Positions 2,708-30,671 of a stretch of 64,000 nucleotides of DNA are shown piece after piece. Source of the stretch: the human T2T-CHM13v2.0 reference genome, Homo sapiens. Location: assembly GCF_009914755.1 (NCBI RefSeq), contig NC_060925.1. One strand, given 5' to 3'. The position numbers and the translations under genes were made by a program. The notes below the pieces were generated by a model. The model had not been told where the DNA came from. It ran no database searches and worked only from the letters and a program-made list of their open reading frames with translations. Each line of letters starts with the position of its first letter. The stretch's first letter is position 1.

Positions 2708-3716
2708 ATGGGGAAAAAACAGAGCAGAAAAACTGAAAACTCTAAAAAGCAGAGTTCCTCCTCCAAAGGAACGCAGTTCCTCACCAGCAACGGAACAAAG
2801 TTGGATGGAGAATGACTTTGATGAGTTGAGAGAAGGCTTCAGACAATCAAACTACTGCAAGCTACAGGAGGAAATTTGAACCAAAGACAAAGAAGTTGAA
2901 AACTTTGAAAAAAATTTAGACGAATATATAACTAGAATAACCAATACAGAGAAGTGCTTAAAGGAGCTGATGGAGCTGAAAGCCAAGGCTCGAGAACTAC
3001 GTGAAGAATGCAGAAGCCTCAGGAGCCGATGCGGTCAACTGGAAGAAAGGGTATCAGTGGTGGAAGATGAAATAAATGAAATGAAGCAGGAAGGGAAGTT
3101 TAGAGAAAAAAGAATAAAAAGAAACTAACAAAGCCTCCAAGAAATATGGGACTATGTGAAAAGACCAAATCTACATCTGATTGGTGTACCTGAAAGTGAC
3201 GGGGAGAATGGAACCAAGTTGGAAAACACTCAGCAGGATATTATCCAGGAGAACTTCCCCAATCTAGCAAGGCAGGCCAACATTCAGATTCAGGAAATAC
3301 AGAGAACGCCACAAAGATACTCCTCGGGAGGAGCAACTCCAAGACACATAATTGTCAGATTCACCAAAGTTGAAATGAAGGAAAAAATGTTAAGGGCAGC
3401 CAGAGAGAAAGCTCAGGTTACCCACAAAGGGAAGCCCGTCAGACTCATAGCTGATCTCTCGGCAGAAACTCTACAAGCCAGAAGAGGGTGGGGGCCAATA
3501 TTCAACATTCTTAAAGAAAAGAATTTACACCCCAGAATTTCATATCCAGCCAAACTAAGCTTCATAAGTGAAGGAGAAATAAAATACTTCACAGACAAGC
3601 AAATGGTGAGAGATTTTGTTACCACCAGGCCTGCCCTAAAAGAGCTCCTGAAGGAAGCACTAAACATGGAAAGGAACAACTGGTACCAGCCACTGGAAAA
3701 TCATGCCAAAATGTAA
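2708..3716 (+). pseudogene. L1 ORF1p, disrupted
   Basis: Starts ATGGGGAAAAAACAGAGC. The C-terminal 186-aa frame KRPNLHLIGVPE...ENHAKM (3156-3716) matches ORF1p; upstream stops and indels break the frame. Confidence 0.93.
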
Positions 3717-3779
3717 AGTCCATCAAGACTAGGAAGAAACTGCATCAACTAATGAGCAAAATAACCAGCTAACATCATA

Positions 3780-6700
3780 ATGACAGGATCAAATTCACAC
3801 ATAACAATATTAACTTTAAATGTAAATGGACTAAATGCTCCAATTAAAAGACACAGACTGGCAAATTGGATAAAGAGTCAAGACCCATCAGTGTGCTGTA
3901 TTCGGGAAACCCGTCTCACGGGCAGAGACACACATAGGCTCAAAATAAAAGGATGGAGGAAGATCTATCAATCAAATGGAAAACAAAAAAAGGCGGGTTG
4001 AAATCCTAGTCTCTGATAGACTTTAAACCAACAAAGATCAAAAGAGACAAAGCAGGCCATTACATAATGGTAAAGGGATCAACTCAACAAGAAGAGCTAA
4101 CTATCCTAAATATACATGCACCCAATACAGGAGCACCCAGTTTCATAAAGCAAGTCCTGAGTGACCTACAAAGAGACTTAGACTCCCACACAATAATAAT
4201 GGGAGACTTTAACACCCCACTGTCAACATTAGACAGATCTACGAGACAGAAAGTCAGCAAGGATACCCAGGAATTGAACTCAGCTCTGCACCAAGCGGAC
4301 CTAATAGACATCTACAGAACTCTCCACCCCAAATCAACAGTATACATTTTTTTCAGCACCACACCACACTTATTCCAAAAATGACCACATAGTTGGAAGT
4401 AAAGCTCTCCTCAGCAAATGTAAAAGAACAGAAATTATAACAAACTGTCTTTCAGACCAAAGTGCAATCAAACTAGAACTCAGGATTAAGAAACTCACTC
4501 AAAACCGCTCAACTACATGGAAACAGAACAACCTGCTCCTGAATGATTACTGGGTACATAATGAAATGAAGGCAGAAATAAAGATGTTGTTTGAAACCAA
4601 TGAGAATAAAGACACAACATACCAGAATCTCTGGGACACATTCAAAGCAGTGTGTAGAGGGAAATTTATAGCACTAAATGCCCACAAGAGGAAGCAGGAA
4701 AGATCCAAAATTGACACCCTAACATCACAATTAAAAGAACTAGAAAAGCAAGAGCAAACACATTGAAAAGCTAGCAGAAGGCAAGAAATAACTAAAATCA
4801 GAGCAGAACTGAGGGCAACAGAGACAAAAAACCCTTCAAAAAATTAATGAATCCAGGAGCTGGTTTTTTGAAAGGATCAAAAAAATTGATAGACCGCTAG
4901 CAAGACTAATAAAGAAAAAAAGAAGAATCAAATAGACACAATAAAAAATGATAAAGGGGATATCACCACCGATCCCACAGAAATACAAACTACCATCAGA
5001 GAATACTACAAACACCTCTACGGAAATAAACTAGAAAATCTAGAAGAAATAGATAAATTCTTCGACACATACACTCTCCCAAGACTAAACCAGGAAGAAG
5101 TTGAATCTCTGAATAGACCAATAACAGGCTCTGAAATTGTGGCAATAATCAATAGCTTACCAACCAAAAAGAGTACAGGACCAGCTGGATTCACAGCCGA
5201 ATTCTACCAGAGGTACAAGGAGGAGCTGGTACCATTCCTTCTGAAACTATTCCAATCAATAGAAAAAGAGGGAATCCTCCCTAACTCATTTTATGAGGCC
5301 AGCATCATCCTGATACCAAAGCCGGGCAGAGACACAACTAAAAAAGAGAATTTTAGACCAATATCCTTGATGAACATTGATGCAAAATCCTCAATAAAAC
5401 ACTGGCAAACCGAATCTAGCAGCACATCAAAAAGCTTATCCACCATGATCAAGTGGGCTTCATCCCTGGGATGCAAGGCTGGTTCAGCATATGAAAATCA
5501 ATAAACGTAATCCAGCATATAAACAGAACCAATGACAAAAACCATATGATTATCTCAATAGGTGCAGAAAAGTCCTTTGACAAAATTCAACAACCTTCAT
5601 GCTAAAAACTCTCAATAAATCAGGTATTGATGGGACGTATCTAAAAATAATTAGAGCTATCTATGACAAACCCACAGCCAATATCACACTGAATGGGCAA
5701 AAACTGGAAGCATTCCCTTTGAAAACTGGCAAAAGACAGGGATGCCCTCTCTCATCACTCCTATTCAACATAGTGTTGGAAGTTCTGGCCAGGGCAATTA
5801 GGCAGGAGAAGAAAATAAAGGGTATTCAATTAGGAAAAGAGGAAGTCAAATTGTCCCTGTTTTCAGACGAAATGATTGTATATGTAGAAAACCCCGTTGT
5901 CTCAGCCCAAAATCTCCTTAAGCTGATAAGCAACTTCAACAAAGTCTCAGGATACAAAATCAATGTGCAAAAATCACAGGCATTCTTATACACCAATAAC
6001 AGACAAACAGAGAGCCAAATCATGAGTGAACTCCCATACACAATTGCTTCAAAGAGAAGAAAATACCTAGGAATCCAACTTCCAAGGGACGTGAAGGACT
6101 TCTTCAAGGAGAACTACAAACCACTGCTCAAGGAAATAAAAGAGGATAGAAACAAATGGAAGAACATTCCATGCTCAAGGGTAGGAAGAATCAATATCGT
6201 GAAAATGGCCATACTGCCCAAGGTAATTTATAGATTCAATGCCATCCCCATCAAGTTACCAATGACTTTCTTCACAGAATTGGAAAAAACTACTTTAAAG
6301 TTCATATGGAACCAAGAAAGAGCCTGCATCGCCAAGTCAATCCTAAGCCAAAAGAACAAAGCTGGAGGCATCATACTACCTGACTTCAAACTATACTACA
6401 AGGCTACAGTAACCAAAACAGCATGGTACTGGTACCAAAACAGAGATATAGATCAATGGAACAGAGCACAGCCCTCAGAAATAACGCTGCATATCTACAA
6501 CTATCTGATCTTTGACAAACCTGAGAAAAACAAGCAGTGGGGAAGGGATTCCCTATTTAATAAATGGTGCTGGGAAAACTGGCTAGCCATATGTAGAAAG
6601 CTGAAATGGGATCCCTTCCTTACACCTTACACAAAAATTAATTCAAGATGGATTAAAGACTTAAACGTTAGACCTAAAACCATAAAAGCCCTAGAAGAAA

Positions 6701-28700: not shown

Positions 28701-29610
28701 TGTAGTGTTATAAATTTCCCTCTACACACTGCTTTGAATGTGTCCCAGAGATTCTTGTATGTTGTGTATTTGTTCTCATTGGTTTCAAAGAACATCTTTA
28801 TTTCTGCCTTCATTTCATTATGTACCCAGTAATCATTCAGGAGCAGGTTGTTCAGTTTCCATGTAGTTGAGTGGTTTTGAGTGAGTTTCTTAATCCTGAG
28901 TTTTAGTTTAATTACACTGTGGTCTGGGAGACAGTTTGGTATAATTTCTGTTCTTTTACATTTGTTGAGGAGTCCTTTACTTCCAACTATGTGGTCAATT
29001 TTGGAATAAGTGTGGTGTGGTACTGAAAGGAATGTATATTCTGTTGATTTGGGGTGGAGAGTTCTGTAGATGTCTATTAGGTTGGCTTGGTGCAGAGGTG
29101 AGTTCAATTCTTGGATATCCTTGTTAACTTTCTGTCTCATTGATCTGTCTAATGTTGACAGTGGGGTGTTAAAGTCTCCCATTATTATTGTGTGGGAGCC
29201 TAAGTCTCTTTCTAGGTCTCTAAGGACTTGCTTTATGAATCTGGCTGCTCCTGTATTGGGTGCATATATATTTAGGATAGTTAGCTCTTCTTGTTGAATT
29301 GATCCCTTTACCATTCTGTAATGGCCTGCTTTGTCTCTTTTGATCTTTGCTGGTTTAAAGTCTTTTTTTTATCACAGACTAGGTTTGCAACCCCTGCTTC
29401 TTTTTGTTTTCCATTTCCTTGGTAGATCTTCCTCCATCCCTTTATTTTGAGCCTATGTGTGTCTCTGCAGATGAGATGTGTTTCCTGAATACAGCACACT
29501 GATGGGTCTTGACTCTTTATCGAATTTGCCATTCTGTGTCTTTTAATTGGAGCATTTAGCCCATTTACATCGAAGGTTAATATTGTTATGTGTGAATTTG
29601 ATCCTGTCAT
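25790..29610 (-). pseudogene. L1 ORF2p, disrupted
   Basis: Starts MTGSNSHITILTFDVNGLN. Fragments of 100, 218, 121 and 400 aa; RT motif reads FADE. Confidence 0.93.
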
Positions 29611-29673
29611 TATGATGTTAGCTGGTTATTTTGCTCGTTAGTTGATGCTGTTTCTTCCTAGCCTCGATGGTCT

Positions 29674-30671
29674 TTATGATTTGGCATGTTTTTGCAGTGG
29701 CTGGTCCCAGTTGTTCTTTTCCAAGTTTAGTGCTTCCCTCAGGAGCTCTTGTAGGGCAGGCCTGTTGGTGACAAAATCTCTCAGCATTTGCTTGTCTGTA
29801 AAGGATTTTATTTCTCCTTCACTTATGAAGTTAGTTTGGCTGGATATGAAATTCTGGGTTGAAAATTCTTTTCTTTAAGAATGTTGAATATTGGCCCCCA
29901 CTCTCTTCTGGCTTGTAGAGTTTCTGCTGAGAGATCAGATGTTAGTCTGATGGGCTTCCCTTTGTGGGTAACCAGAGCTTTCTCTCTGGCTTCCCTTAAC
30001 ATTTTTTCCTTCATTTCAACTTTGGTGAATCTGACAATTATGTGTCTTGGAGTTGCTCTTCTCGAGGAGTATCTTTGTGGTATTCTCTGTATTTCCTGAA
30101 TTTGAATGTTGGCCTGCCTTGCTAGATTGGGGAAGTTCTCCTGGATAATAACCTGCAGAGTGTTTTCCAAGTTGGTTCCATTCTCCCTGTCACTTTCAGG
30201 TACACCAATCAGATGTAGATTTGGTGTTTTCACATAGTCCCATATTTCTTGGAGGCTTTGTTTGTTTCTTTTTATTCTTTTTTCTCTAAACTTCTCTTCT
30301 CACTTTATTTCATTCATTTGGTTTTCCATCACTGATACCCTTTCTTCCAGTTGATCGAATGGGCTACTGAGGCTTGTGCATTCATCACATAGTTCTCGTG
30401 CCTTTGTTTTCAGCTCCATCAGGTCCTTTAAGGACTTCTAGTTAGGCATTCATCTAATTTTTTTTTCAAGCTTTTTAAGTTCTTTGTCATGGGTTCAAAC
30501 TTCCTCCTTTAGCTTGGGGTAGTTTGATTGTCTGAAACCTTCTCTCAACTCATCAAAGTCATTCTCTGTCCAGCTTTGTTTCATTGCTAGTGAGGAGCTT
30601 CATTCCTTTGGAGGAGGAGAGGCACTCCAATTATTAGAGTTTCCAGTTTTTCTGATCTGTTTCTCCCCCAT
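29674..30671 (-). pseudogene. L1 ORF1p, disrupted
   Basis: MGEKQIRK start; the KTPNLHLIGVPE...RISYPAKL fragment at 29823-30233. Confidence 0.9.

What the first reader, a model, noticed from the sequence alone, without database searches (positions are those of the whole stretch)
2829..30546. Inverted L1-a and L1-c share scattered private variants, including inactivating ones: probable gene conversion across ~18 kb
Non-consensus states found in both copies (L1-a / L1-c positions): 3-bp deletion GAGAGAAGG (~2832 / ~30541); AAAGCTC (3412 / 29977); AAGCAGGCC (4053 / 29328); CTGAGGG plus a 2-bp frameshift deletion GAGAC-AAAAAACCC (~4813-4825 / ~28560); AAAACACTGG (5400 / 27980); ATGAAAATC (5494 / 27886); and the RT motif DD>DE with a GAA codon (5869-5871 / 27508-27510). 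An ORF2 frameshift and a catalytic-motif change are unlikely to be inherited from a shared active source. The 5'UTRs differ in subtype. Each element still has its own matched TSDs, so there is no net inversion. This points to repeated short-patch, non-crossover exchange between the inverted copies after insertion (inference).
Basis: partly seen in the sequence, partly recalled or inferred. Interest (0 to 1): 0.8.

Follow-up and report, generated by a model that had tools for sequence, protein, structure and literature searches.

The report
Old sequence exchange between two L1s
Two dead LINE-1 retrotransposons of different ages, lying head to head about 18 kb apart beside the chromosome 1 centromere, share a stretch of about 1 kb that the younger one most likely copied from the older one long ago; this is an ordinary kind of event.

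Summary
Both L1s are real and full length. L1-a is about 1671-7813 (+) and L1-c about 25586-31697 (-). They are 91.8% identical, and homology stops at the element ends, so this is not an inverted duplication.

They belong to different subfamilies. There are 43 fixed differences in the first 1 kb and 13 subfamily-diagnostic differences in ORF2 4400-5384.

In 5385-6370 the picture reverses:
- No diagnostic site separates them (0 of 13, against 13 of 21 to the left; p=0.0002).
- L1-a carries alleles of L1-c's minor sublineage.
- Private changes are equal (21 vs 22, against 12 vs 37 to the left).
- The two are sisters in the tree (98/91).

The RT-box GAA lies in this stretch. Together with 6256T it occurs only in these two copies genome-wide.

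Several listed "private" variants are not private:
- The ORF1 3-bp deletion is in 15 unlinked copies.
- 5400C+5494A is in 15.
- 3412C is in 38, 4053C in 13 and GAA in 39.
- The 2-bp deletion is a recurrent slippage site, and in L1-c it is ambiguous.
- L1-c has no target-site duplication.

Best reading (about 0.68): one ancient c-to-a non-allelic gene conversion of about 0.9-1.2 kb, perhaps with a few short patches. This is a known kind of event and of modest interest.

The parts
1671..7813 (+). L1-a: full-length, long-dead L1PA element of the younger (intermediate) subfamily; the recipient.
   Evidence: The 5' end reads GGGAGGAGCCAAGATGG and there is an A-rich tail. One collinear alignment to L1-c covers 1674-7800. 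ORFs are fragmented; the longest is 462 aa with RVT_1. Its closest 5' relatives are at 93-94% identity.
1661..1670 (+). Upstream target-site duplication of L1-a (CTGATTTTGC).
   Evidence: Exact 10-nt repeat, also found at 7814-7823.
7814..7823 (+). Downstream target-site duplication of L1-a.
25586..31697 (-). L1-c: full-length, long-dead L1PA element of an older subfamily and of the minor 5400C/5494A sublineage; the likely donor.
   Evidence: Ends were read, and no TSD of 7 nt or more was found. It shares 43 states with its best genomic hit L089, against L1-a and L1-a's relatives. It has the older alleles at 13 ORF2 diagnostic sites, like the sublineage copies. ORFs are fragmented; the longest is 400 aa with RVT_1.
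5400..6256 (+). Minimal converted stretch in L1-a; the outer limits are about 5172 and 6374. It holds the RT-box codon GAA at 5869-5871.
   Evidence: 0 of 13 diagnostic sites are discordant here, against 13 of 21 in 4400-5384. Seven sublineage or older alleles are shared: 5400C, 5488C, 5494A, 5506C, 5528A, 5572G and 6231T. Seven a/c-only states are shared: 5417T, 5533T, 5545T, 5871A, 6090C, 6256T and 6325T. Private changes are 21 vs 22. a and c are sisters at 98/91.
27123..27980 (-). Matching stretch of L1-c, the presumed donor copy. GAA is at 27508-27510.
   Evidence: Coordinates come from the a-c alignment.
4547..4825 (+). Isolated a/c-shared states: 4547T (with CpG 4562T) and 4813G with the 2-bp loss. 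Diagnostic sites at 4406, 4706, 4796 and 4874 where a and c differ lie on either side of them or between them. They are possible short extra patches or coincidences.
3412..4053 (+). Isolated a/c-shared transversions 3412C and 4053C. Each is also present in other genomic copies.
2830..2887 (+). ORF1 cluster shared by a and c: the 3-bp deletion, 2877T, 2878G and others. This is an older-subfamily haplotype, not a private one.
   Evidence: 17 genome places carry it. One unlinked copy, chr14:81639254, has L1-a's exact haplotype.

Best explanation
L1-c inserted first. It belongs to an older subfamily and to a minor sublineage marked by 5400C and 5494A. It then began to decay, and the RT-box change GAC>GAA was among its early changes.

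L1-a, of a younger subfamily, inserted later by ordinary target-primed reverse transcription. It lies about 18 kb away in the opposite orientation.

Early in L1-a's residence the two ORF2 regions were still about 96-97% alike. At that time a non-allelic, non-crossover gene conversion copied about 0.9-1.2 kb of L1-c into L1-a (window about 5400-6256, at most 5172-6374). It carried over L1-c's sublineage alleles and its early private mutations. Up to four isolated shared states further 5' may come from extra short patches or from patchy mismatch repair of a longer heteroduplex.

Shown: the mosaic structure of L1-a, the exclusivity of the shared states, and the equal divergence inside the stretch. 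Inferred: the direction, the mechanism and the timing.
For: 1. Not a duplication. Homology stops at the L1 ends and the flanks differ. L1-a has its own TSD.

2. Different subfamilies.
- In the 5' 1 kb, c shares 43 states with L089 against a and its 19 relatives, while a shares none with L089 against c.
- The 39 best genomic hits of each 5' end do not overlap.
- In 4400-5384, a has the younger allele and c the sublineage or older allele at 13 diagnostic sites.
- There, {29 younger-type copies + a} is split from {c, sublineage, older copies} at 100/97. Forcing a+c to be sisters is rejected (AU p=0.0024).

3. The stretch 5385-6370.
- 0 of 13 diagnostic sites are discordant (Fisher p=0.00024).
- Private changes are 21 (a) vs 22 (c), against 12 vs 37 to the left (p=0.018).
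- a+c are sisters at 98/91 with the ascertained columns masked, and at 98/98 in the reduced row set.
- 8 of 12 consecutive c-differences in 5400-5545 are shared by a, against 8 of 149 elsewhere. The hypergeometric probability is 5.6e-7, or 8e-5 after correcting for about 150 windows.

4. The donor is c or a twin of c.
- Of the 17 places with the sublineage pattern, only a and c have 5417T.
- GAA+6256T occurs only in a and c genome-wide.
- Of the 8 places with the strict pattern, only a has younger-type alleles at 5140-5171.

5. Proximity (inference). The sublineage has few detectable members (17), so the closest relative lying 18 kb away by chance is very unlikely.
Against: - AU tests do not reject the alternative placements in several sets. 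In the masked stretch, a placed with the younger clade gives p=0.118. In the reduced 29-row set the values are p=0.169 (stretch), 0.111 (3200-4399) and 0.156 (4400-5384). An earlier p=0.003 came from a badly specified constraint and does not count.
- The stretch boundaries were chosen after seeing the data.
- In a doubleton test over 4364-6500 with the ascertained sites left out, a-c share only 3 doubletons, all C>T. Six of 1,081 pairs share more.
- Private change of L1-a is not lower inside the stretch (21 in 977 columns) than to the left (12 in 965). The exchange therefore cannot be told apart in age from L1-a's insertion, and a chimera formed at or before insertion is not excluded.
- Seven c-early states were transferred, where about 15 might be expected (my estimate); this is marginal.
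- One unlinked copy has L1-a's ORF1 haplotype, so some a/c sharing is lineage-level.
- No orthologous ape sequence was available.
Confidence: 0.68

Rival explanations
1. Recombinant at birth. L1-a was already a chimera when it inserted. Either its source element had recombined with the 5400C/5494A sublineage, or the cDNA switched template to an L1-c-like RNA, or the insertion intermediate copied from the resident L1-c. Only the last version explains why the two lie close together.
For: The age of the shared stretch (a 21, c 22 private changes in 977 columns) is not younger than L1-a's own age estimated to the left (12 in 965). One unlinked copy shares L1-a's transitional ORF1 haplotype. Mosaic L1 lineages are known (recalled, not checked here).
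Against: No other genome place has L1-a's junction haplotype. The pattern 5150C+5400C+5417T found only L1-a and L090, and L090 is otherwise plain younger-type. An RT-dead GAA cannot have been carried by an autonomous source. If the donor was not the neighbouring DNA, chance proximity to c has to be assumed.
Confidence: 0.17
2. Shared descent only. L1-a and L1-c come from one minor sublineage or source, and all shared states were inherited.
For: 5400C+5494A recur in 15 unlinked copies. The ORF1 deletion haplotype recurs in 15, and 3412C in 38.
Against: There are 43 subfamily differences in the 5' 1 kb and 13 in 4400-5384. a+c as sisters is rejected there (AU p=0.0024). A tree-like history would need many reversals and an RT-dead trunk.
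Confidence: 0.05
3. Chance parallel mutation at hotspots, with no exchange.
For: The 2-bp loss recurs in 3 of 26 copies. GAA, 3412C and 4053C each recur at 13-39 places. The three strict doubletons are all C>T.
Against: About 1.3 coincident sites are expected in the stretch, against 14 seen. With 0.6 expected same-base coincidences, the Poisson probability of 9 or more is 1.6e-8. The shared states are clustered. Private counts are equal only inside the stretch.
Confidence: 0.05
4. Inverted segmental duplication of a single L1 insertion.
For: The arms are collinear over 6.1 kb.
Against: Homology ends exactly at the L1 ends and the flanks are unrelated. L1-a has its own TSD. The 5' ends are of different subfamilies.
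Confidence: 0.02

Closest known systems
Non-allelic gene conversion between neighbouring Alu elements. I read passages of Fawcett & Innan 2019 (PMC6598467), which cite Aleshin & Zhi 2010 and Kass et al. 1995; I did not read the cited papers.
   Same: Sequence is exchanged between nearby dispersed retrotransposon copies, giving trees that disagree with insertion history. Rates are described as higher for copies closer than 10 kb and for more similar copies. An old element can take on alleles of another subfamily.
   Different: Here the partners are 6-kb L1s about 18 kb apart and inverted. The tract is about 1 kb, the older copy is the donor, and the event is ancient, so it is blurred by about 4.6% later divergence.
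Arm-to-arm gene conversion in inverted repeats and palindromes, for example on the sex chromosomes (recalled; only a listing of the ape sex-chromosome paper PMC10705393 was seen).
   Same: Inverted orientation, intrachromosomal, non-crossover exchange.
   Different: Palindrome arms are duplicates kept near-identical by ongoing conversion. Here there are two independent insertions, with one or a few old events and no ongoing homogenisation (91.8% identity).
Mosaic L1 lineages formed by recombination between subfamilies, and double-strand-break repair of a LINE using other LINEs as template (recalled from the literature; not retrieved in searches).
   Same: Chimeric L1 sequence that combines diagnostic states of two lineages.
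   Different: Those chimeras are source elements or experimental repair products. Here the mosaic haplotype is seen at one locus only, next to its likely donor.

Membership tests
LINE-1 (L1PA) retrotransposon, both copies | About 6 kb long, with a 5'UTR, ORF1, an ORF2 with a reverse-transcriptase domain, an A-rich tail and a TSD. | tested here: met
   There are 6.1-kb collinear arms. RVT_1 is matched at E=2e-17 and 1e-20. Thousands of genomic relatives exist. A tail and a TSD are present for L1-a; no TSD was found for L1-c. Repbase or Dfam subfamily names were not assigned because no such library was on hand.
Non-allelic (ectopic) gene conversion | The recipient is a mosaic: inside the tract it groups with the donor, and outside it groups with its own lineage. 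| tested here: met
   Left segment: a groups with the younger clade at 100/97, and a+c is rejected at p=0.0024. Stretch: a+c are sisters at 98/91. Diagnostic sites are discordant at 13 of 21 against 0 of 13. AU tests of the alternative placement inside the stretch were not significant (p=0.118 and 0.169).
Non-allelic (ectopic) gene conversion | The transferred states are specific to the proposed donor. | tested here: met
   5417T is seen only in a and c among the 17 sublineage places. GAA+6256T occurs only in a and c genome-wide.
Non-allelic (ectopic) gene conversion | Non-crossover outcome: flanks and orientation are unchanged. | tested here: inconclusive
   L1-a's two TSD copies still flank it in direct order, and subfamily identity is the same on both sides of the stretch. 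Whether the 18-kb spacer was ever inverted cannot be told from one genome.
Non-allelic (ectopic) gene conversion | The pre-conversion state is seen at the orthologous locus of an outgroup. | not testable with these tools
   No primate genomes are held.
Ordinary L1 sublineage sharing (common source) | The whole variant set recurs together in unlinked copies, and the two copies are related tree-like over their whole length. | tested here: not met
   Subsets recur. The a/c-exclusive combinations do not. The two copies differ in subfamily outside the stretch.
Inverted segmental duplication / palindrome | Homology runs beyond the repeat element into shared flanks. | tested here: not met
   The alignment stops at 1674/31697 and 7800/25578, and the flanks are unrelated.

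The most novel reading that the evidence does not exclude
The exchange was coupled to L1-a's own integration. The nascent insertion, or the break that it repaired, used the resident L1-c 18 kb away as a homologous template, so the new element was born carrying a patch of its dead neighbour, including a dead RT box.

More broadly, nearby inverted L1 pairs may swap or share rare states often. Among the 41 genome places with the GAA variant, three are close inverted pairs, where 0.03 are expected by chance.
Probability: 0.15. Interest if true: 0.55.

Novelty: new member of a known kind. Interest (0 to 1): 0.33.

Why it matters
- It shows that inactivating changes in old L1 copies can be shared through exchange rather than descent.
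- Subfamily calls and ages based on divergence can therefore be misleading for L1s that lie close to another copy.
- It gives a worked test for such exchange: diagnostic-site painting, equal private counts, and genome-wide haplotype counts.
- As a single ancient event in non-coding pericentromeric DNA it has no evident functional consequence.

Tried and rejected
- **Inverted duplication.** These turned out to be the L1 5'UTRs, and the flanks are unrelated.
- **Simple sister copies from one source.** Rejected by the subfamily differences.
- **A second copy with L1-a's junction haplotype.** chr1:147402145 (L090) matched the pattern. When fetched it was plain younger-type at 5488, 5494, 5506, 5533, 5545, 5871 and 6256, so the match is a coincidence.
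- **AU test (p=0.003).** The constraint left out three younger-type rows. Re-specified, it gave p=0.118.
- **Reduced-row AU tests.** None was significant.
- **Doubleton test.** L1-a/L1-c rank 7th of 1,081 pairs, which is notable but not extreme. Fifteen of 62 rows had been dropped beforehand as poorly aligned.
- **Crude frequency classes with a mixed panel.** Too noisy; replaced.
- **First full fragment alignment.** It timed out and was redone.
- **Label-shuffling test of the cluster.** Not run; a hypergeometric calculation from the counts was used instead.
- **Literature.** Searches found general statements on gene conversion between transposable elements. They found no paper on this locus, and no L1-specific neighbour study in the held library.

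
Full report
**Setting.** The window is T2T-CHM13 chr1:121,582,001-121,646,000, just before the chromosome 1 alpha-satellite array. 171-bp repeats start near 37.18 kb. The assembly itself could be searched as G000.

**Anatomy**
- A single collinear inverted alignment joins 1674-7800 to 31697-25578. 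It has 90.75% identity over 6,162 columns.
- A global alignment gives 5,601 matches, 502 mismatches and 119 gap columns, which is 91.8% identity.
- Both arms start with the L1 5'UTR and end in an A-rich tail, and the sequence outside them is unrelated. These are therefore two full-length L1s and not an inverted duplication.
- L1-a (about 1671-7813, +) is flanked by an exact 10-nt repeat, CTGATTTTGC. L1-c (about 25586-31697, -) has no flanking repeat of 7 nt or more.
- L1-c's 3' side is an older L1 fragment, 67-77% similar, in the same orientation.
- Both elements are broken into short ORFs. The longest are 462 and 400 aa, and both match RVT_1.
- A third, older L1 (L1-b, about 8958-13290, -) is 89% identical to each. 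I used it as an outgroup.

**Checking the listed variants.** I compared the two copies with four sets of genomic L1s.
- Y: 26 usable copies out of the 29 non-self loci fetched's 40 listed matches to L1-a 4700-5000 (the 30th locus was L1-a itself). Three poorly collinear rows were dropped.
- P5: the 19 fetched out of the 39 non-self matches to L1-a's first 1,026 nt.
- S: six unlinked copies that carry 5400C+5494A.
- O: 28 of the 39 other copies that carry the GAA 20-mer.

All seven states are present in both copies, and most are absent from Y and P5. Genome-wide pattern counts change the picture.
- The ORF1 3-bp deletion together with the TTTGAACC state occurs at 17 places. Most have L1-c's haplotype, and one (chr14:81639254) has L1-a's.
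- 5400C+5494A occurs at 8 places with the strict pattern and 17 with the relaxed one.
- 3412C occurs at 40 places, 4053C at 15, and GAA at 41 against 9,481 for GAC.
- The 2-bp AC loss recurs in 3 of 26 Y copies. In L1-c the net change is -6 nt, so a shared frameshift is not established.
- In protein terms L1-a reads FSDE and L1-c reads FADE, where the panel's DNA encodes FADD.

**The two elements are of different subfamilies**
- The 39 best genomic hits of the two 5' ends do not overlap. L1-a's are at 93-94% and L1-c's at 86-91%.
- In the first 1 kb, L1-c shares 43 states with its best hit L089 against L1-a and P5. L1-a shares none with L089 against L1-c. The four a/c-only states there are C>T or G>A changes.
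- In ORF2 4400-5384 there are 21 sites where the S majority and the Y majority differ. L1-a has the Y allele and L1-c the S allele at 13 of them. Both have the S allele at 5, and four of those five are also in the intermediate-type copy L028.
- The tree of this segment puts {29 younger-type rows + L1-a} against {L1-c, S, older O, L1-b} at 100/97. Forcing a+c to be sisters costs 43.9 lnL (AU p=0.0024).

**The stretch 5385-6370 behaves differently**
- None of 13 diagnostic sites is discordant in the a=Y, c=S sense (Fisher p=0.00024 against the left segment).
- L1-a carries the S or older allele at 5400, 5488, 5494, 5506, 5528, 5572 and 6231.
- Seven further states are shared by a and c only: 5417T, 5533T, 5545T, 5871A, 6090C, 6256T and 6325T.
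- In 5400-5545, 8 of 12 consecutive sites where L1-c departs from Y are shared by L1-a, against 8 of 149 elsewhere. The hypergeometric probability is 5.6e-7, or about 8e-5 after correcting for window choice.
- Private changes are 21 (a) and 22 (c) here, against 12 and 37 in 4400-5384 (p=0.018). A Y-only count gives 23/21 against 39/102 (p=0.003).
- With the ascertained columns masked, a+c are sisters at 98/91. With only a, c, b and Y they are sisters at 98/98.
- Exclusivity holds genome-wide. Only a and c have 5417T among the 17 sublineage places. GAA+6256T occurs only in a and c.
- Of the 8 strict-pattern places, only L1-a has younger-type alleles at 5140-5171.
- The single other match to L1-a's junction haplotype, L090, proved otherwise plain younger-type.

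**Results against this reading**
- AU tests do not reject placing L1-a with the younger clade inside the stretch (p=0.118; p=0.169). In the reduced row set they also do not reject a+c as sisters outside it (p=0.111 and 0.156).
- The p=0.003 came from a mis-specified constraint.
- I chose the boundaries after looking at the data.
- With ascertained sites excluded, a-c share only three strict doubletons, and six of 1,081 pairs share more.
- L1-a's private change inside the stretch is not lower than outside, so the exchange is as old as L1-a within error.
- The four isolated shared states (3412C, 4053C, 4547T, 4813G with the AC loss) lie between discordant diagnostic sites. Each also recurs elsewhere, apart from the 4547T+4813G pair, which is found only in a, c and one old copy. 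They are about four where roughly one is expected by chance (my estimate). This is suggestive only.

**Interpretation.** A tree-like history cannot give both the subfamily differences and the exclusive sharing, so some recombination took place.
- The alleles in the stretch are native to L1-c's sublineage, since five of five usable S copies have older-type flanks. L1-c is therefore the donor and L1-a the recipient.
- The donor-specific states and the 18-kb distance point to local non-allelic gene conversion. This is a known process between nearby retrotransposon copies (passages read in PMC6598467 and PMC8232201).
- The GAA codon would then be an early decay mutation of L1-c that was copied into L1-a.
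- The divergence since the event is about 2.2% per copy. At the usual primate neutral rates (recalled) that would be very roughly 10-20 million years.
- A chimera formed at insertion is the main rival.

**Verdict.** It is re-shaped into one ancient tract of about 1 kb, perhaps with a few patches. This is a new instance of a known kind of event and of modest interest.

Noticed in passing
G000 chr18:49917214(+)/49972122(-) and chr18:66917305(+)/66937292(-): Besides a and c, two more close inverted pairs (55 kb and 20 kb apart) are among the 41 genome places with the rare GAA RT-box 20-mer. By chance 0.03 close pairs are expected, and P(3 or more) is 5e-6. They could be inverted duplications or conversions; this is unknown.
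   Followed up: no
L008 / L016 = G000 chr2:45083888(+) / 45067592(-); also chr12:97699909(+) / 97680710(-): These are inverted L1 pairs 16-19 kb apart among the top 40 hits to a 301-nt query. L008 and L016 are sisters (99 and 95 SH-aLRT) with end branches of 0.000-0.003, and they share 6 doubletons.
   Followed up: partly
window 25400-25586 and 31698-31760: L1-c has no target-site duplication of 7 nt or more. Its 3' side is an older L1 fragment in the same orientation. It may have inserted with a target deletion or by another route.
   Followed up: partly
window ~4822-4825: The AC loss in the ACAC run of ORF2 recurs independently in 3 of 26 unlinked copies (L019, L021, L022). This is a slippage hotspot.
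   Followed up: yes
G000 chr1:121488845 and the short arms of chr14, chr15 and chr22: The 4053C 18-mer has 15 places. One lies 93 kb before the window, and five lie at low coordinates of the acrocentric chromosomes. They may be copies of one L1 spread by pericentromeric duplication.
   Followed up: no
window 8958-13290: L1-b is an older inverted L1 only about 1.1 kb from L1-a's 3' end and 89% identical to a and to c. I used it as an outgroup and did not test it for exchange with L1-a.
   Followed up: no
window 37181-64000: An alpha-satellite array with 171-bp periodicity. Copies at 92-97% identity recur at multiples of the monomer.
   Followed up: no
window 4400-5384 vs 28000-29000: L1-c has about three times as many private changes as L1-a outside the shared stretch (37 vs 12). 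This fits L1-c being the much older insertion.
   Followed up: yes
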